Shown here: positions 42,001 through 48,000 of the stretch, piece by piece | How positions within the stretch are numbered: position 1 is the first letter of the stretch | Layout: the number at the start of each line of letters is the position of its first letter | NCBI GenBank assembly: GCA_965205975.1 | Contig: OZ242195.1 | Location: forward strand, 768,001-832,000 | Source: Candidatus Latescibacterota bacterium | Lineage (GTDB): Bacteria; Latescibacterota; UBA2968 | DNA: 64,000 nucleotides | Reading direction: 5' to 3' | Position numbers: made by a program

Positions 42001-45000
42001 TGATCATCTCGGCACCGTCCTTATGGTGCTTGAGCTTCTGGATAATTAAGCTGCCTTTGCTCTGTACAGACCACTGTGCGTTCATGGCCACCCGGTTGTC
42101 TTTGGGGCGAACGATGGGAACAATACGCGCATCGTGTTCGCCGGCAAAGATCACGCCTTGCCAGCGATTTTGTGCACTGATCGCAGCCCAATCCTCCAGG
42201 GGCCTCGCTTCCGTCATTGGCGTTCCCATGATGAAGGCGGGATCGCAGTAGCTGTAGCGCAGAATACCACCCTTATCGGTTCGCATCCTGGTCGGCACTT
42301 GTGTATCAGCAGTCTTCAAAGGGCGACCCGTTTTTCCCAGACCCTGGGGACGCTGTCGCACCTCGTAGCGTCCTCGTCCTGCCACGTCGATTGCGATATC
42401 GGCTACCACGGCTGGTGGACGGTAGTCGCTGAGAGCCGCGTTTACGTCATGACCGTAAACAGCAGGCTGCTTGCCGATGCCAAAGTAGAACCAGGCCAGC
42501 GGCGCATTGCCATGATCCCGATTTTGCTGAAGCCCTTTCCAGAAATAGACGCGAGACCGCCCACCACCTTGAACGCCGTCAATCTGTTCCTGCGCCCAAT
42601 AGGCAAAATAAAGATCGAGCAACAGCCCGGCTGACCGTCTCACCTGCGGGTCACCAAAGTCGTAGAAATTGTAGAACCCCTTGATCAATGTGCTGTTATA
42701 GTCGTCGCACATCATCTCGATGCACAGGCTTTTGCGCGCACGTTCACGGCAGTAGATCACAAAATACGCATTCCAGGCCCGATAGTGTTCCGCCGCTGTA
42801 GCGCCGTCATCATACTTGAGATTCTTGTATTCGGGCCGATCTTTCGCGATCCTGGCAAACTGCCAGCAGACCGTAAAACTCATGGCATGATGATTCTCTG
42901 ACAGGTAGATGTGCCAGGTCTTAGATTTCTCGTATTCCGCCTTATCAAGTCGGGAAACCTTCCTGACGTATTCCCAAATTGGCTTGAGAGCGAGGGCTTC
43001 GGTCTTTTTGGTGATGCGATTACTACCGTTGGTGCCGTACATCTCAATCAGCCGCATGACGATCTCCGCATGCCAGTGAAAACTGTCACGGTCATTGATG
43101 TCCAGAGGGTTGTCGAGATAATGCTGGGCATTTTCGATAAGTGCGGCATTGGCTTCTTCCAGCATCTCGTTCAGGTAGAGGCAACGTGCGGCAAACCCCA
43201 CCATGGAATAGGAATAGGCCCGCACATAATTTCCTCGCCCGGGATCGAGTGGCTTCTGTTTTTTTGCCCGCACCAACGGCTTGCCAGATTCAGCGCGAAA
43301 CATCGCATCCACTCGCTGGTCAAAGCCAGCTACGACCGCTTCGGGGGTAAAATTCTTCTTCACTGGTTCCGCTCCTTGTGTCTGCCCAGTTATAAGTATA
43401 ACGATCAGCATTATGCGGTTTATAATTCGCATTATAAATACTCTGTTAATCCTGGTGAAAAACTTCCTGCAGCGGTATGCAGACTGGCGAGTTGTCGGGA
43501 TTGGTGTCCATGATATCGGCCATGTAGGCCCACCATTTCTTGACGATTTCGGTCTCTGGCAACTCATCTGCAGTATTGTCGTCGGTCAGCTTTTGCACCG
43601 CAAAGAGTGTCAGCGTCTCCTCATCGAGAAAAATTGAATAGTCCGAGACGCCAGCTTTGCCCAATTCTTCAGCTAGTTCGGGCCAAATTTCGTCGTGGCG
43701 CTTTTTGTACTCGGCTTCGTAACCGGGCTTTAGCTGCATCTTGAAAGCATTGCGTTGCATGATATTTTACTCCTGACTTCGAGGATGAAGGGTTTTAGCA
43801 TTCATCGCCTTCATTTGCGCTCACGCTGAGCAGTCCCCGGCGTCTGTTGTACCGGTATCAAATGCCCATCCGTCCCACATGTTGTCAACGGTCGCTGGCA
43901 CATCCTCTCGAAAGTTTCGGGTATCGACCCACCACTGACGGTTTGGTGCTGGTCCATGCGACAGGTTAAAATATGGCGTCATACCATCTCGTTGATACTC
44001 ACAGGGAACGACGAGACGCACGACAGGCCGATCGCGGTCAGCAGAGCGATTGACACCTCCCCCGTGAATAAGGCGAGGATGCCAGAAAACAACGTCCCCT
44101 GCTTTGCCGGAAAACTCCACTGGCGCGATCTCTCTCAGCACATTGTCACGGGCTTTGCTATACGGCTCTGCGAGGTCGGGGTCAAGGGGACCGTAAACAG
44201 TAGTGTGATACAAGTGACTCATGTAATGTGACCCCGGCCAGATTGTAAAGCCACCAGAGTGCGGCGGCACCGTATCTACAAAAACCATTGCAGACAATTG
44301 AGCCGCTGTATGGTCTCCATGGGGGGCCAAACGACTTTCTGAATTTGGTGGTTTTGGAAATATACAATAGACCCCGCGCACCCGGTTTGAACGCTTAACC
44401 GGGTCGCCGATAAACAATGAGACCAACTGCCGCATACGTGGATGGTTGGCGATCTTATCGACAAAAAAAGGCTCTGTACCAATTTTGCGCGAGCGCATCT
44501 TCCAGGTGCCGCGCGAAAAGTGCCCTGCATTTTCGGCATCCGCCTCTGTCCACTGCCCGTGTGGCGCATCGAACCACGTTTGCACATCGTCGCGTTTGAC
44601 AATTTCACGCGGCACATTTTCCCACACATAATCCACGATCCGGTCAAACGTCTCCTTCTCTTGCAGAAACCCGCGTTTCACAATAAAACCATTCTCTTTG
44701 AAAAACGCGACTTCGGCTTCACTGAGGGTTGGGTCTCCGTTCACAAATTCTGGATCGGGCAAGAGGGCTGGGTCTCCGTTCGCAAATTCTGGATTGACCA
44801 ATACCTGGGGATCGCGGATGACGACGTCTTCGGAAATTCTGAGTGCGTGTAAACCGCTCCCTTCAAATGGCGGCACCAAAAGATTGTAGAATTGTTGCGC
44901 TTTCTCTTTCTGATTCATGCATGCCAATTCGGCTTTCACAGGCTCAAAGTCCATATTTAAATAAAGGTAAGCGGCGAGCCTCATACATCTAAATGCGGGC

Positions 45001-48000
45001 TCCCCAGAAAAGGGTTGGATCTGTGGAAGCGTCCACTCGAGATCGCCCGTCCAGTAGGGATAAAGCCAATCAAAGGCGCGTCGCATGGATCGTCCATCGG
45101 CAGATTCAAAATTGGCGAGATCAATACCCCACTGTCGGCCAATTTCAGCGAGTTCTAAAAGCAGCTCCAAATTCATACTCGCGTATCCAAGTGATTTTGT
45201 GCGTGCGAGTTCCAGAGGCTGTTGACCATCTGGCTCAATCTGATTGGCAATTCTTCTTTCTCCCACCCCTTTTAATATCATTCGCGCAAGGTCTGATTGC
45301 CCCACAAAAAGCGCGAATGTCACAACCTGAACATCATAAGAACTCGAATGGTTATTGCCATGACGCGCTTCATCAACGCCATAAGGATGCTTCAACATCC
45401 ATTCGAGAAAGGCATGAAACCAGGCCTGCAAATTTTCCATATCTTTTTTGGACCAGTTCCTGGAGTCGCGCAAAAAACTGACCGCAGGGAGCATATCGCG
45501 TGCAAATGCAGCCGTCTCAATAAGCCCAATACCTCGCCCTTCGCATATCCCGGGTATGGCCTGTCCAAACAACAGGTTTGGGTTCATCCTGGTTTCGGGA
45601 TTCATAAACCATGTTCGCAACAACAATGCAGCATGAGCCGCGTAGTCTTCTCGATGTGTAAAACCATACGCAAACCCCAGCGTTTTTACCGTTGAAATGA
45701 ATTTTGCCAACAAAGGGCGGTCCGTTTTCTCGACCTCGGGATTGACCTCGCCATCTCGTCGGATATAAGGCAAACCGTCAGGCTTATCGGGGTCAGGCCA
45801 CCAGTAAGGTCCAACACTCATGTAATCGTGTTTGTCACTACTGGTAGGCAAGATCGGTTTGTTCACAATGGTCAGCGGTTCCTGCTTCAAAGCGGCATCC
45901 GCTTTCACAAGCAAGGCTTTTAGAGCTTGCCCACACGGGTTATCTTCTTGTTTGCTCAACGAGCGCGCCCGCTTGATGTAATCGGGATCTACTGTAAATA
46001 TGGGTTCAGCAGGTGAAAACGCCTCGAGCAGATCAGCTTCTTTGTCCGGATACATGTGAATACTCCTGTTTTAAGTTGGTCATTGTAAAATGAAACTCGC
46101 CTGGCTTTGACTCAGCTACCGCTCAGGATCTACTGTAGCACCTGTTACAAATAATAAAGCATCTTTGGAAAGTTTCTTGCCTCCCACGTACATCCCCCAT
46201 CGAAAGGCACTGCGACCACTGGGCCTTGCCCAGTCGTGGCGTCCTACAAATTCCCCATTGATGTAGCATTCAGATGTATAGCCGTTGTCGCGAATGCGGA
46301 CATCAAAAGACTTGCCTTCCATGTTCTTTAATACAGTCTTAGGGGTCGCTCTGCGCGGCTGGAATACGACGTCACCTTCAGCGGTCATAGCCAAATGTAT
46401 GGACCAGTCTTCGCCATCGTTTTTCACCTGAAAAATGGCACACCCTTGTGCCTTCACAATCGTGTAGGTGCCAATCCATTCATGCCAGGTCCCGCGGTCC
46501 CACCTCTTTTTGCTAAACGCCTCTATCCGAGCCGCATTGGCACGTGCATTGCGCACATTGTGCTCACCATCAAAAAGGCGAAACACCTGTGTGTTTCCGT
46601 CCTCCTGATACCATCGCGACCATTTGTGAAAATCGCGTCGAGGAATCAAACTGTTGCCCAGCGTGTGAATGTTGATTTCACTTTCTATGGGGCGTAATGC
46701 ATAGGGCCCCTTTTCTACCACCTCGTTATTGACGTCAATTATTGAACCTGTTATTCCCGCAGATGAGTTCGCACCGATCGGAATCTGTTTCTCTTCGAGA
46801 ATGGACGACCATGAAGGATCACTACCCTGCCTGGTGTAAAGGAACCGATCGGGGCTACCACCGCCACCACCGCCAGAGGTGGAGGTAGCAAAGGCATTGA
46901 CAAAGAGCAGAAAATCGCCAAAATCTATCATACCATTTCCGTCCAGATCAACCGGGGCGTCATACTTGTCATCGCCTTGATTTGCTCCAAACTTGCTTGC
47001 TAAAAATAAAAAATCTGCAAAGTTAACCATCTCATCGCCATTGAAATCCCCAGGCTGCGCAGTATCATCTGTCTGATTGCCCACGAGACCATCAGAGGCT
47101 TGCCCCGCGCATAGCAGCAACACAAGAGCGGCAATAAACGCTATTCCTTTGTTCAAAGACATTTGCGACATCCTTTCTCAATTTTTCTGAAGACCCTGCC
47201 CAATCCAATTTTTTTGAACATTTTGTGTTTTTCTATGAGGCGCTGCACAACGAAATGTCTTGATTGAGGTTCATTTTTGTATGTACTATGCATATACGCA
47301 GTAGTTCTTTATATTGCGCTACACCGATCTGGTAGCGCGGGCTGAACTCAAAACAATGGGAAGAATATATATGGCACAGGCACAAAAACGACCACACATA
47401 CTCATTCTCACGGCGGACCAGCTACGGGCGGATTCCATGGGCTGCGCCGGTCATCCGCGGGTCAAAACGCCGGTCATCGACTCGCTTGCCAACGACGGCA
47501 TGCGGTTCAGCAATTGCCACACCGTGTCACCGGTCTGCCAGCCGTCGCGGGTATCGTTCATCACTGGCACCTACCCTCACAACCACGGCATCTGGTACAA
47601 CCGCGGCGAGCTGCCGATCAACTACCCGACGCTGTTCTCCCAATTGCGGGACGCTGGCTACCACACGGCAACCGTCGGCAAGTCGCACCTCTGGAGCCAC
47701 AAGAAGGTGTCTCATTTGTGCGAAGGCGAGCCGTATCTGCAAGCGCTCGGCTTTGACGTCATCGACGAACTCGGAGGACCGCGGGGGAGTCTCAACTCGG
47801 ACTCGTACTTCACCGACTACCTGCGCGAGAAGGATCTGTTCGAACTCTTTGTCAGCGACACGCGCGAACGGGTTCGCGACCCAAAGCTCGTCAAACCGGC
47901 GGCGTTTGAGGAGGACGATCACATGGACGGGTACGTGGGCAGGCGCTCGGTCGAGTTCGTCGATTCTGCGCCCGAGGATCGTCCGACCTGTCTGTTCGTC

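What a model noticed while it worked through the whole genome (the two positions that open the first line are those of the whole stretch)
43821..46055. 147 PhyH-type Fe(II)/2-oxoglutarate dioxygenase genes (3% of all genes), clustered with the 165 sulfatase genes
The genome carries 147 genes with a PhyH (phytanoyl-CoA dioxygenase-like) domain, nearly as many as its 165 sulfatase genes; most are single-domain proteins of 250-290 aa. A PhyH gene lies within two genes of a sulfatase three times more often than by chance and they also cluster with each other. One is fused to an alginate-lyase domain (g00735, the interval given), four to HEAT repeats. I propose that this family has been recruited on a large scale to the breakdown of sulfated or otherwise modified glycans, e.g. 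oxidative removal of substituents that hydrolytic sulfatases and lyases cannot handle; I found no description of such an expansion.
Evidence so far: Counts from pfam.tsv: PhyH 147, Sulfatase 165, GFO_IDH_MocA 98, AP_endonuc_2 51, MR_MLE_C 44 genes of 4957; paralogue clusters of 40, 27, 13, 8, 4 PhyH proteins by blastp. PhyH within +-2 genes of a sulfatase: 49 observed, 16.9 +- 3.9 expected from 500 random placements; of another PhyH 50 vs 15.4 +- 3.8; of GFO_IDH_MocA 18 vs 10.8 +- 3.2; of MR_MLE 11 vs 5.2 +- 2.2. Fusions: g00735 Alginate_lyase+PhyH 744 aa; g02226, g02574, g03696, g04931 PhyH+HEAT. Six-frame search with PF05721 in 25 Latescibacterota genomes >=90% complete: 101-182 first-look candidates (68-78 scored hits, scoring capped at 78) in each of the 7 genus genomes, 16-47 hits in 5 genomes of four other families, 0 in the other [...]
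(Added by a program. Inside this text positions count along the whole contig: contig position 768,001 is position 1 of the stretch shown here. "Call 12" and the like, gene names such as g00115 and contig names such as C1 are that model's own, and its searches are not shown. The text may have been shortened before it was handed on; [...] marks where a part breaks off. The agent that wrote the report below was given it as the finding of a first reader that could run no searches.)

Follow-up and report, generated by a model that had tools for sequence, protein, structure and literature searches.

The report
PhyH oxygenase expansion linked to sulfatases
This sponge- and coral-associated bacterium devotes about 3% of its genes to one family of iron-dependent oxygenases, many sitting beside intracellular sulfatases, an expansion already known from another sponge-symbiont phylum whose substrates are still unknown.

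Summary
PF05721 gives 147 matches in 146 ORFs, about 3% of genes. There are about 165 sulfatases.

49 of 146 PhyH genes lie within two genes of a sulfatase, against 17.4 ± 4.2 under a circular-shift null; 0 of 4639 shifts reach 49. This is the strongest pairing among ten expanded families.

The interval encodes a conserved fusion of a PL38-like uronate lyase and a PhyH domain, with catalytic residues intact in both.

The novelty claim fails. The same expansion was published for Poribacteria (Kamke 2014), and this scan has noted it in other genomes.

- For: both families mostly lack signal peptides. About 22 paralogues carry the relocated iron triad of the sugar-oxidising enzyme HygX. One PhyH orthologue sits in a GFO–PhyH–GFO–PhyH–PhyH–sulfatase–GFO cassette in 45 of 46 poribacterial loci. 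Proximity replicates in a Poribacteria genome.
- Against: two thirds of PhyH genes are not near sulfatases. Sister genera have up to 152 PhyH candidates with 8 sulfatase candidates. Proximity is not significant in two other genomes.

Substrates remain unknown.

The parts
43821..46055 (-). 744-aa fusion protein: PL38-like uronate lyase domain + flexible linker + PhyH Fe(II)/2OG oxygenase domain; no N-terminal signal sequence
   Evidence: 36 database clusters at 67-96% identity keep both domains
45036..45869 (-). Alginate_lyase (PF05426) domain, residues 63-340. Y84, E229, H236, R285 and Y291 align with BoPL38 Y91, E236, H243, R292 and Y298.
   Evidence: (3nfv E 1e-86; 8bdq/9fht/9fhu E 2e-62)
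44736..44891 (-). Linker, residues 389-440, predicted disordered
   Evidence: pLDDT <50
44031..44702 (-). PhyH (PF05721) domain, residues 452-675. H579-x-D581, H664 and R680 are invariant in 29 orthologues.
31252..32094 (-). 280-aa PhyH gene whose stop overlaps by 4 bp the start of the next sulfatase gene. It has an orthologue (about 42% identity) in Poribacteria.
   Evidence: AF2 model pLDDT 86 with PhyH fold
29939..31255 (-). Sulfatase, 438 aa, Pfam domain from residue 8 (no room for a signal peptide)
23648..24496 (-). 282-aa PhyH gene beside an aldo/keto reductase and two sulfatases
35299..36366 (-). 355-aa divergent PhyH gene between sulfatases
48811..49737 (-). 308-aa PhyH-like ORF, found only with the profile built from this genome's paralogues (E 4e-32); no Pfam hit
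19166..22685 (-). Two sulfatase genes (19166-21079, 21051-22685)
22696..23634 (-). Aldo/keto reductase
24536..27043 (-). 835-aa right-handed beta-helix protein (possible glycan lyase or hydrolase)
27101..28447 (-). Sulfatase
32309..35205 (-). Two sulfatase genes (32309-33721, 33724-35205)
36524..39980 (-). Two sulfatase genes (36524-37951, 37992-39980)
40044..43567 (-). BNR_4 propeller protein (40044-41471) and a 699-aa protein without a Pfam match (41468-43567), directly downstream of the fusion gene
46116..47171 (-). 351-aa protein with a weak dockerin-type match, directly upstream of the fusion gene
47314..48786 (+). Sulfatase on the opposite strand

Best explanation
The genome carries a very large, old and highly diverged family of cytoplasmic Fe(II)/2-oxoglutarate oxygenases of the PhyH fold. 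Almost all of them look catalytically competent.

About a third are built into co-directional gene clusters with cytoplasmic, Cys-type sulfatases. NAD-dependent sugar oxidoreductases, sugar-acid dehydratases and aminotransferases show weaker neighbour enrichment.

The most likely role (inferred, not shown) is oxidative processing of imported, decorated sugars or small oligosaccharides. The enzyme would hydroxylate a C-H next to an oxygen substituent, such as a methyl ether, an anomeric carbon or an ester-bearing carbon. A group that hydrolases cannot remove would then leave, or the sugar would be converted into a form that the neighbouring dehydrogenases and dehydratases accept.

The protein in the given interval joins such an oxygenase to a PL38-like uronate lyase, so there the two steps would act on the same uronate-containing oligosaccharide.

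The link to sulfatases is one use of the family, not the reason for its expansion. The expansion is shared by most genera sampled in the class, is found in Poribacteria, and occurs in genomes with few sulfatases.
For: Shown:
- Active-site residues are kept: His 145 of 146, Asp/Glu 119 of 146, distal His 145 of 146, Arg 145 of 146.
- 22 of the 24 members with Gly/Ala/Ser in place of the acid have Asp/Glu four residues before the distal His, against 6 of 119 canonical members. This is the H-x-G...E-x3-H arrangement of HygX, which oxidises the sugars of hygromycin. HygX is their best solved relative (E 2e-13 and 3e-7).
- A hydrophobic N-terminal segment is present in only 7 of 146 PhyH and 10 of 150 sulfatase ORFs, against 28% of all ORFs.
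- The sulfatase Cys motif sits at position 45-59 of the longest ORF in 96 of the 142 ORFs where the motif was found.
- 15 FGE genes are present.
- Proximity in this genome: 49 of 146 against 17.4 +- 4.2. It is the strongest family pairing.
- There are 36 adjacent pairs, 32 on the same strand, 22 of those 32 with gaps of 50 bp or less, and both gene orders are equally common.
- Other neighbour families: Zn-ADH 6 of 19, GFO/IDH/MocA 16 of 83, DegT aminotransferase 3 of 9, MR_MLE 7 of 36. ABC ATPases (2 of 43) and FGE (0 of 14) are not enriched.
- Lyase domain: all five BoPL38 catalytic or positioning residues are conserved.
- The fusion is kept in 36 clusters down to 67% identity.
- Cross-phylum: the orthologue of window PhyH 31252-32094 lies in a same-strand PhyH-PhyH-sulfatase run in 45 of 46 poribacterial-type loci. 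The one miss is a 2.2-kb contig. 17-18 of 19 Latescibacterota-type loci have a sulfatase within about 2 kb. In the two poribacterial loci annotated with Pfam the cassette reads GFO-PhyH-GFO-PhyH-PhyH-sulfatase-GFO.
- Genome-wide proximity replicates in a Poribacteria genome: 19 of 134 against 6.6 +- 2.9.
- Literature: PF05721 members, including one from Poribacteria, demethylate 2'-O-methyl ribose of nucleosides (PMC12709175, two passages read).
Against: - No substrate or reaction is shown.
- 97 of 146 PhyH genes are not within two genes of a sulfatase. About half of all PhyH neighbours belong to no paralogue family (304 of 628).
- PhyH is expanded without sulfatases in sister genera. First-look candidates, PhyH against sulfatase: 152/8, 81/19, 182/50, 186/40.
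- Proximity is not significant in G054: 12 of 150 against 9.7 +- 3.5, with 1413 of 5000 shifts reaching it. Only 150 of 341 candidates were scored there.
- Proximity is not significant in G052: 8 of 118 against 4.1 +- 2.2, with 384 of 5000 shifts reaching it.
- The sulfatase of the poribacterial cassette is not the orthologue of the sulfatase beside the window's PhyH, so there is no fixed enzyme pair.
- A search for longer, fused relatives of a sulfatase-coupled PhyH found none, which is weak evidence.
- The within-genus count correlation (r 0.97, n 16) is largely shared with GFO/IDH/MocA (r 0.91-0.92). The partial r is 0.82 and the genomes are not independent.
- Fold search places the sulfatase-coupled PhyH among PhyH-fold enzymes in general (TM 0.57-0.66, 15-21% identity), not near any one of known substrate.
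- The signal-peptide test is a crude hydrophobicity rule on longest ORFs.
Confidence: 0.55

Rival explanations
1. Most of the family acts on small molecules that are not glycans. Candidates from the host or from seawater include sulfated sterols or lipids, isoprenoid acids, ectoine-like or betaine-like zwitterions, and phosphonates. Under this reading the sulfatase neighbours desulfate such metabolites rather than sugars.
For: Two thirds of PhyH genes are not near sulfatases. Expansions exist in sulfatase-poor genomes. Kamke 2014 found PhnY-like members beside PhnZ in Poribacteria. Aldo/keto reductases are enriched near sulfatases (8 against 2.3). Characterised PhyH-fold relatives found by fold search mostly act on terpenoid or alkaloid substrates.
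Against: The lyase fusion. HygX-type members. GFO/IDH/MocA, MR_MLE and DegT-type neighbours. Glycan-active genes in the window: GH125, a weak sub-threshold GH130-like hit, pectate-lyase-like, BNR and beta-helix proteins.
Confidence: 0.25
2. The association is a by-product of genome organisation. Expanded accessory families pile up in the same fluid catabolic islands without working together.
For: No significant enrichment in G054 and G052. Both gene orders are equally common. The array is rearranged in close relatives seen in public contigs. GFO counts scale with both families across the genus.
Against: Other expanded families do not share the effect: sulfatase against GFO z +0.6, and against ABC ATPase z -2.4. 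The cassette is conserved over 45 of 46 poribacterial loci. 32 of 36 adjacent pairs are co-directional, mostly with short gaps. The effect replicates in another phylum.
Confidence: 0.1
3. The PhyH proteins are tailoring enzymes that build a secondary metabolite or a surface glycan, as HygX, SnoK/SnoN and the fungal meroterpenoid oxygenases do.
For: The nearest solved relatives are biosynthetic enzymes. Earlier notes report PhyH batteries in glycan-export operons of other bacteria.
Against: The enriched neighbours are mostly catabolic: sulfatases, dehydrogenases and dehydratases. The DegT-type aminotransferases could fit either reading. No glycosyltransferase, PKS, NRPS or exporter family is enriched; ABC ATPases are depleted. 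A full search for biosynthetic clusters was not made.
Confidence: 0.07
4. The PhyH proteins mature or regulate the sulfatases, for example by making formylglycine.
For: Similar gene numbers in this genus (ratio 0.84-1.15 in 16 genomes) and adjacency.
Against: 15 FGE genes are present and 141 of the 142 sulfatase ORFs in which the motif was found (of 150 examined) are Cys-type. PhyH is expanded where sulfatases are few. The extreme diversity of the paralogues does not fit a general maturase.
Confidence: 0.03

Closest known systems
PhyH (PF05721) expansion of sponge-symbiotic Poribacteria (Kamke et al. 2014, PLoS One, PMC3909097; passages read; supplementary tables S10/S11 not read)
   Same: PF05721 is one of the most abundant families. 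It makes up about 3% of genes here, against more than 1.9% in Poribacteria and less than 0.049% in all other genomes of 2013. The paralogues are very diverse and of unknown function, and the hosts are sponge-associated. At least one orthologue is shared (42% identity).
   Different: A different phylum (records titled Latescibacterota). Here the link to sulfatases is quantified, HygX-type members are recognised, and a lyase fusion is present. None of these is in the passages read.
HygX, orthoester-forming Fe(II)/2OG oxygenase of hygromycin B biosynthesis (PDB 4xc9, 4xca, 4xcb, 4zpi; review PMC13374393, passages read)
   Same: PhyH fold. The H-x-G...E/D-x3-H relocated iron triad is found in 22 paralogues. 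HygX is their best solved relative (E 2e-13). Its substrate is a carbohydrate.
   Different: Similarity is low and partial (113 aligned residues). The genes here lie beside sulfatases and other PhyH genes, not in an aminoglycoside cluster. The reaction is unknown.
BoPL38, broad-specificity alginate lyase of Bacteroides ovatus (PDB 8bdq, 9fht-9fhz; bioRxiv 10.1101/2024.12.11.627697, passages read) and 3nfv
   Same: The N-terminal domain aligns over about 300 residues (E 2e-62; 3nfv E 1e-86). Y91, E236, H243, R292 and Y298 are conserved.
   Different: The protein here has no signal peptide and carries a C-terminal PhyH oxygenase domain. Substrate not tested. Formal CAZy family assignment not tested.
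PHYHD1/FJS 2'-O-methyl-nucleoside demethylases (NAR 2025, PMC12709175; abstract start and two passages read)
   Same: PF05721 enzymes that remove a methyl ether from a sugar hydroxyl. A poribacterial member was active in complementation.
   Different: Orthology of any paralogue here to these enzymes was not tested.
AtsK-type 2-oxoglutarate-dependent alkylsulfatase (recalled, from no call)
   Same: Precedent for oxidative cleavage of a sulfate ester by an Fe(II)/2OG enzyme.
   Different: Recalled to belong to the TauD family, not PhyH. The proteins scanned here match PF05721 only.

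Membership tests
PhyH family (PF05721) Fe(II)/2OG oxygenases | Match to the family profile above the curated cut-off | tested here: met
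   147 matches, all over 22 bits. The fusion scores 63.4 bits.
PhyH family (PF05721) Fe(II)/2OG oxygenases | His-x-Asp/Glu...His iron triad and the 2-oxoglutarate-binding Arg | tested here: met
   H 145, D/E 119, distal H 145 and R 145 of 146. 22 of the 24 G/A/S exceptions have a relocated acid. Residue roles were assigned by conservation in the alignment, with the motif recalled.
PhyH family (PF05721) Fe(II)/2OG oxygenases | Double-stranded beta-helix fold | tested here: met
   One member was modelled (pLDDT 86). Foldseek hits include 2a1x, SnoN, HygX and FtmOx1 at E about 1e-14.
PhyH family (PF05721) Fe(II)/2OG oxygenases | 2-oxoglutarate- and O2-dependent turnover | not testable with these tools
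   Needs enzyme assays.
PL38-type (Alginate_lyase PF05426) uronate lyases | Homology to the catalytic alpha/alpha-barrel domain | tested here: met
   PF05426 E 4e-83. 3nfv E 1e-86 and 8bdq E 2e-62.
PL38-type (Alginate_lyase PF05426) uronate lyases | Catalytic Tyr and His with the Arg, Glu and second Tyr that position them (BoPL38 Y298, H243, R292, E236, Y91) | tested here: met
   They align with Y291, H236, R285, E229 and Y84 (numbering). These are invariant or at least 90% conserved in 29 orthologues.
PL38-type (Alginate_lyase PF05426) uronate lyases | Beta-elimination on alginate or glucuronan | not testable with these tools
   Needs assays. CAZy family assignment was also not run.
HygX-type oxygenases | H-x-G ... 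E-x3-H relocated triad | tested here: met
   22 paralogues. Motif definition.
HygX-type oxygenases | Place in an orthosomycin or aminoglycoside biosynthetic cluster | tested here: not met
   In the one region examined in detail (genome 3674000-3684000) the neighbours are sulfatase and PhyH genes. 11 of 21 HxG/A members lie within two genes of a sulfatase.
Fe(II)/2OG halogenases (SyrB2/WelO5 type; features recalled) | Acidic ligand replaced by Gly/Ala with no substitute carboxylate | tested here: not met
   22 of 24 carry Asp/Glu at -4 of the distal His.
Poribacteria-type PhyH expansion | PF05721 in more than about 2% of genes, with high paralogue diversity | tested here: met
   146 of 4739 ORF-genes. 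66 singletons at E<=1e-40. Threshold.

The most novel reading that the evidence does not exclude
PhyH oxygenases, cytoplasmic sulfatases and GFO/IDH/MocA oxidoreductases together form a non-hydrolytic, oxygen-dependent intracellular toolkit for stripping decorations from marine or host glycans. The decorations would include methyl ethers, esters at hindered positions and perhaps anomeric linkages. Sponge-associated bacteria of at least two phyla would have built or exchanged this toolkit. The conserved cassette GFO-PhyH-GFO-PhyH-PhyH-sulfatase-GFO would be a complete pathway for one sulfated sugar. The lyase-PhyH fusion would be the first polysaccharide lyase with a built-in oxygenase.
Probability: 0.3. 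Interest if true: 0.8.

Novelty: new member of a known kind. Interest (0 to 1): 0.55.

Why it matters
The purpose of the hundreds of PhyH genes in sponge symbionts has been open since 2014.

This genome shows that the expansion is not peculiar to Poribacteria. It gives the first whole-genome statistics tying part of the family to intracellular sulfatases.

It also singles out three concrete objects for the bench:
- a translationally coupled PhyH-sulfatase pair whose PhyH has a poribacterial orthologue;
- a seven-gene cassette conserved across about 45 poribacterial species genomes;
- a conserved lyase-oxygenase fusion.

If the enzymes remove non-hydrolysable decorations from sulfated glycans, they would explain how these bacteria use recalcitrant host or algal polymers. 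They would also add a new enzyme class to glycan-degradation biochemistry.

The PhyH-sulfatase link was not found in print in three searches: 23 papers, all animal or plant studies unrelated to bacterial glycan breakdown, most on human or mouse genetics; 0 papers; 1 unrelated paper. It has been noted before by this scan on other genomes.

Tried and rejected
- Sulfatase-maturase idea: rejected. There are 15 FGE genes, the sulfatases are Cys-type, and PhyH is expanded without sulfatases.
- Halogenase reading of the 20 HxG + 1 HxA members: rejected, because the acid is relocated as in HygX.
- Domain packing of the fusion: the AlphaFold model is too poor to use (pLDDT 63, pTM 0.52, linker disordered).
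- Fused PhyH-sulfatase proteins: none was found among 2919 longer candidates. The tool itself calls this weak evidence.
- Subfamily assignment by fold: only generic PhyH-fold hits. By sequence, the fusion's PhyH domain has only marginal PDB hits (E 0.0095).
- The within-genus 1:1 count ratio as evidence of coupling: weakened by the GFO control.
- RNA evidence: contigs of four RNA libraries from three studies (two sponge, one coral) cover 23-28 of 30 bins of window 19000-38900 at 90-99+% identity. Contigs cannot show transcription or strand, and DNA carry-over is possible, so expression is not claimed.
- Literature: no paper in the library holds phytanoyl-CoA dioxygenase together with Latescibacter* except Kamke 2014.
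- Not attempted: NCBIfam or PADLOC scans of all 146 paralogues; SulfAtlas or CAZy typing; a family tree with a co-duplication test.

Full report
WHAT IS AT THE COORDINATES

Window 43821-46055 (minus strand) is a single 744-aa ORF. Pfam finds Alginate_lyase PF05426 at residues 63-340 (E 4e-83) and PhyH PF05721 at residues 452-675 (E 5e-17). The N-terminus has no hydrophobic signal sequence.

The lyase domain's best solved relatives are 3nfv (E 1e-86) and the sequence of 8bdq/9fht/9fhu (E 2e-62). A preprint read in passages names 9FHT, 9FHU and 9FHV as complexes of the Bacteroides ovatus alginate lyase BoPL38. It assigns catalysis to Y298 and H243, with R292, E236 and Y91 in support. In the printed alignment these align with Y291, H236, R285, E229 and Y84 of the window protein. 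All five are invariant or at least 90% conserved among 29 orthologues.

In the PhyH domain, H579-x-D581, H664 and R680 are invariant.

The database holds 36 clusters at 67-96% identity that keep both domains, at 681-744 aa. More distant relatives (52% identity or less) are lyase-only proteins. So the fusion is a conserved protein, not an assembly or annotation accident.

An AlphaFold model was poor (pLDDT 63). It shows only that residues 389-440 form a disordered linker.

THE GENOME-WIDE COUNTS

The six-frame PF05721 search of the 5.56-Mb single-contig genome gives 147 matches, all above the curated cut-off. They lie in 146 ORFs, which is 3.1% of my 4739 crude ORF-genes. A profile built from them finds 19 more PhyH-like ORFs, one of them in the window at 48811-49737. 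Sulfatases number 164-166.

In an all-against-all blastp, sulfatases (162) and PhyH (118 in one linkage cluster) are the two largest paralogue families. GFO/IDH/MocA (83) comes next. The four PhyH+HEAT fusions are confirmed. Median PhyH length is 279 aa.

IS THE CLUSTERING MORE THAN CHANCE?

49 of 146 PhyH genes lie within two genes of a sulfatase. Random placement gives 17.5 +- 3.8. It gives 17.4 +- 4.2 with a maximum of 37, and 0 of 4639 shifts reach 49.

In a ten-family matrix the PhyH-sulfatase pair (z +7.6 to +7.9) stands far above every other pair involving either family (at most z +3.8). Sulfatase against GFO is +0.6, and against ABC ATPases -2.4. A general 'catabolic island' effect therefore does not explain it.

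The PhyH genes beside sulfatases are spread over many divergent lineages; 66 of 146 are singletons at E<=1e-40. There are 36 directly adjacent pairs. 32 are co-directional, 22 of those have gaps of 50 bp or less, and the two orders occur 16 times each.

ARE THE ENZYMES ACTIVE, AND WHERE?

The iron and 2-oxoglutarate ligands are kept in nearly all paralogues.

Twenty paralogues have His-x-Gly, one has His-x-Ala and three have His-x-Ser. This looks like a halogenase. However, 22 of these 24 carry Asp/Glu four residues before the distal His, against 6 of 119 canonical members. That is the H-x-G...E-x3-H triad described for HygX, the oxygenase that closes the orthoester between two sugars of hygromycin B (review read in passages). 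HygX is also their best solved relative.

Only 7 of 146 PhyH and 10 of 150 sulfatase ORFs have a hydrophobic N-terminal segment, against 28% of all ORFs. Of the 142 sulfatase ORFs (of 150) in which a C/S-x-P/A-x-R motif was found, 141 are Cys-type. The Cys lies at position 45-59 of the longest possible ORF in 96 of those 142. In six of nine window sulfatases the Pfam domain starts at residue 4-14.

With 15 FGE genes and no true anaerobic maturase, the picture is of aerobic, intracellular desulfation beside intracellular oxygenases. The localisation test is crude.

NEIGHBOURS

Beyond sulfatases, the families nominally enriched near PhyH are:
- Zn-dependent dehydrogenases: 6 of 19 against 2.2 expected, shift p 0.02.
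- GFO/IDH/MocA: 16 of 83 against 9.5, p 0.02.
- An unannotated 297-aa family: 5 of 17 against 2.0, p 0.04.
- DegT-type aminotransferases (3 of 9), class-III aminotransferases (3 of 10) and enolase-superfamily dehydratases (7 of 36), all with p of 0.07 or more.

ABC ATPases, RND pumps, TPR proteins and FGE are not enriched. Half of all neighbours belong to no paralogue family.

In the window, a 28-kb co-directional array holds eight sulfatases, four PhyH genes including the fusion, an aldo/keto reductase, a beta-helix protein and a BNR propeller. A ninth sulfatase lies just beyond it on the opposite strand.

OTHER GENOMES

In 61 genomes of the phylum at 80% completeness or more, first-look PhyH candidates fall into three groups:
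- 87-211 in all 16 genomes of the genus;
- 48-334 in 15 of 17 other genomes of the same class;
- 0-62 in the remaining 28 genomes, of which 22 have 0-3.

Set against sulfatase candidates, the two counts track each other almost 1:1 inside the genus (r 0.97, ratio 0.84-1.15). GFO/IDH/MocA counts scale with them too (r 0.91-0.92; partial r 0.82; n 16 related genomes). Outside the genus the ratio ranges from 0.13 to 19, for example 152/8, 81/19 and 334/105.

The proximity test was repeated with PhyH midpoints within 3 kb of a sulfatase against circular shifts:

| Genome | Observed | Expected | Shifts reaching it |
|---|---|---|---|
| This genome | 57 of 147 | 25.3 +- 5.7 | 0 of 5000 |
| G054 (another genus; 150 of 341 candidates scored) | 12 of 150 | 9.7 +- 3.5 | 1413 of 5000 |
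| G054 at 5 kb | 24 | 14.4 +- 4.4 | 146 of 5000 |
| G052 (another family) | 8 of 118 | 4.1 +- 2.2 | 384 of 5000 |
| Poribacteria chromosome reached through locus L056 | 19 of 134 | 6.6 +- 2.9 | 0 of 5000 |

Scoring only the best candidates should not bias G054 much. In this genome the rate near sulfatases is similar across score quartiles (12, 12, 19 and 14 of 36-37).

A CONSERVED CASSETTE ACROSS TWO PHYLA

Relatives of the window's PhyH 31252-32094 were fetched from species-representative genomes. The stop of this gene overlaps the next sulfatase's start. The search returned 67 loci:
- 19 at 75-98% identity, of which 14 carry Latescibacterota/Latescibacteria titles and the rest are labelled Poribacteria, Gemmatimonadota or simply bacterium;
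- 46 at 39-42% identity, almost all titled Candidatus Poribacteria;
- one Trueperaceae MAG;
- one further 83%-identity fragment.

Scanning their six-frame ORFs with my own profiles shows a same-strand run PhyH-PhyH-sulfatase in 45 of the 46 poribacterial-type loci. The miss is a 2.2-kb contig. A sulfatase lies within about 2 kb in 17-18 of the 19 close loci. There is none in the Trueperaceae locus.

Pfam on two poribacterial loci gives GFO/IDH/MocA, PhyH (HygX-type), GFO/IDH/MocA, PhyH (the orthologue), PhyH, sulfatase (domain from residue 2), GFO/IDH/MocA.

The poribacterial PhyH hits the window's gene at 42% identity and the next-best paralogue at 23%. The cassette's sulfatase, however, is closest (58%) to two other sulfatases of this genome. 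One of those sits beside yet another, HygX-type, PhyH gene. So the family-level pairing is conserved, but not a fixed enzyme pair.

WHAT IS KNOWN

Kamke et al. 2014 (passages read) reported PF05721 as the most abundant domain family of Poribacteria. It made up more than 1.9% of genes, against less than 0.049% in every other genome then available. The 305 sequences fell into 193 clusters, and function was unknown apart from two PhnY-like genes.

A 2025 paper (abstract start and two passages read) shows that PF05721 enzymes, one from Poribacteria among them, demethylate 2'-O-methyl nucleosides. This is a direct precedent for removal of a sugar methyl ether.

Searches for PhyH or phytanoyl-CoA dioxygenase with sulfatase terms found nothing on bacteria. 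Earlier notes of this scan describe the same theme in other genomes. They are leads, not support. I reached the Poribacteria precedent, the HygX similarity and the cytoplasmic sulfatases from my own calls before reading them.

HOW IT MOST LIKELY WORKS

Shown: a huge, diverse, apparently active and intracellular oxygenase family. About a third of it is embedded in co-directional clusters with intracellular sulfatases, with weaker links to sugar redox enzymes. One subfamily is of the HygX type. There is one conserved fusion to a uronate lyase. The linkage recurs in a second phylum.

Inferred: the enzymes hydroxylate C-H bonds next to oxygen substituents of imported sugars or small oligosaccharides. 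A methyl ether, an ester or a glycosidic partner would then leave, or a rare sugar would be converted for the dehydrogenase and dehydratase routes. The chemistry of AtsK and of the porphyran-demethylating P450 is recalled as a parallel and comes from no call.

I put 0.55 on the carbohydrate-processing reading. I put much less on any particular reaction.

The sulfatase link is one deployment of the family. It is strong in this genus and in Poribacteria, and weak or absent in two sister lineages.

HABITAT AND EXPRESSION

Contigs from RNA libraries of two sponge studies and one coral study match the array at 90-99+% identity. This fits a host-associated organism. It does not prove transcription. 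These contigs also show the array rearranged in close relatives, with the PhyH gene again next to a sulfatase.

VERDICT

- Observation: confirmed.
- Interpretation: partly supported.
- Novelty: a new member of a known kind of expansion, in a second phylum, with a newly quantified sulfatase link and a new lyase-oxygenase architecture.
- Substrates: unknown.

Noticed in passing
window 28505-29653 (-): An AAA_14/DUF4143 ATPase gene interrupts the sulfatase/PhyH array. Contigs of three RNA libraries from two studies join 28461/28462 directly to 29586/29619. Close relatives therefore lack this gene, so it looks like a variable insertion.
   Followed up: partly
window 19000-38900: Public contigs of close relatives show the array in another order (joints 32096->27090, 24510->29885, 33793->35256). 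The locus is fluid between strains, while PhyH stays next to a sulfatase.
   Followed up: partly
genome-wide, e.g. G000:C1:973768-975756: A 34-member paralogue family of about 660-aa DUF6785+DUF6784 proteins is the sixth largest family in the genome. Function unknown.
   Followed up: no
genome-wide: 15 FGE-sulfatase (PF03781) genes and no true anaerobic sulfatase maturase. The FGE genes are not near sulfatases (0 of 14 within two genes).
   Followed up: partly
L001:650-2395 (-) and L006:450-2195 (-): Two 581-aa proteins join an unannotated N-terminal half of about 290 aa to a PhyH domain with HxS or HxG in place of HxD. This is a second, undescribed architecture.
   Followed up: no
window 46116-47171 (-): The gene just upstream of the fusion gene has a weak dockerin type I match (E 3.5e-5, 24.4 bits against a cut-off of 22.9).
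   Followed up: no
G054 (another genus, 8.4 Mb): It has 341 first-look PhyH candidates, the highest count seen. Many of its sulfatase matches are fragments, several with in-frame stops, suggesting decaying sulfatase genes.
   Followed up: no
window 1-18710: Upstream of the array lie a ThuA-like gene, an enolase-superfamily dehydratase, two CN-hydrolases, a GH125 alpha-mannosidase, a pectate-lyase-like protein and a three-gene RND efflux system (9771-15572).
   Followed up: no
L052 (record titled Trueperaceae MAG): A 41%-identical orthologue of the window's PhyH occurs in a genome of a third phylum. Two more PhyH genes are nearby, but no sulfatase within 6 kb.
   Followed up: no
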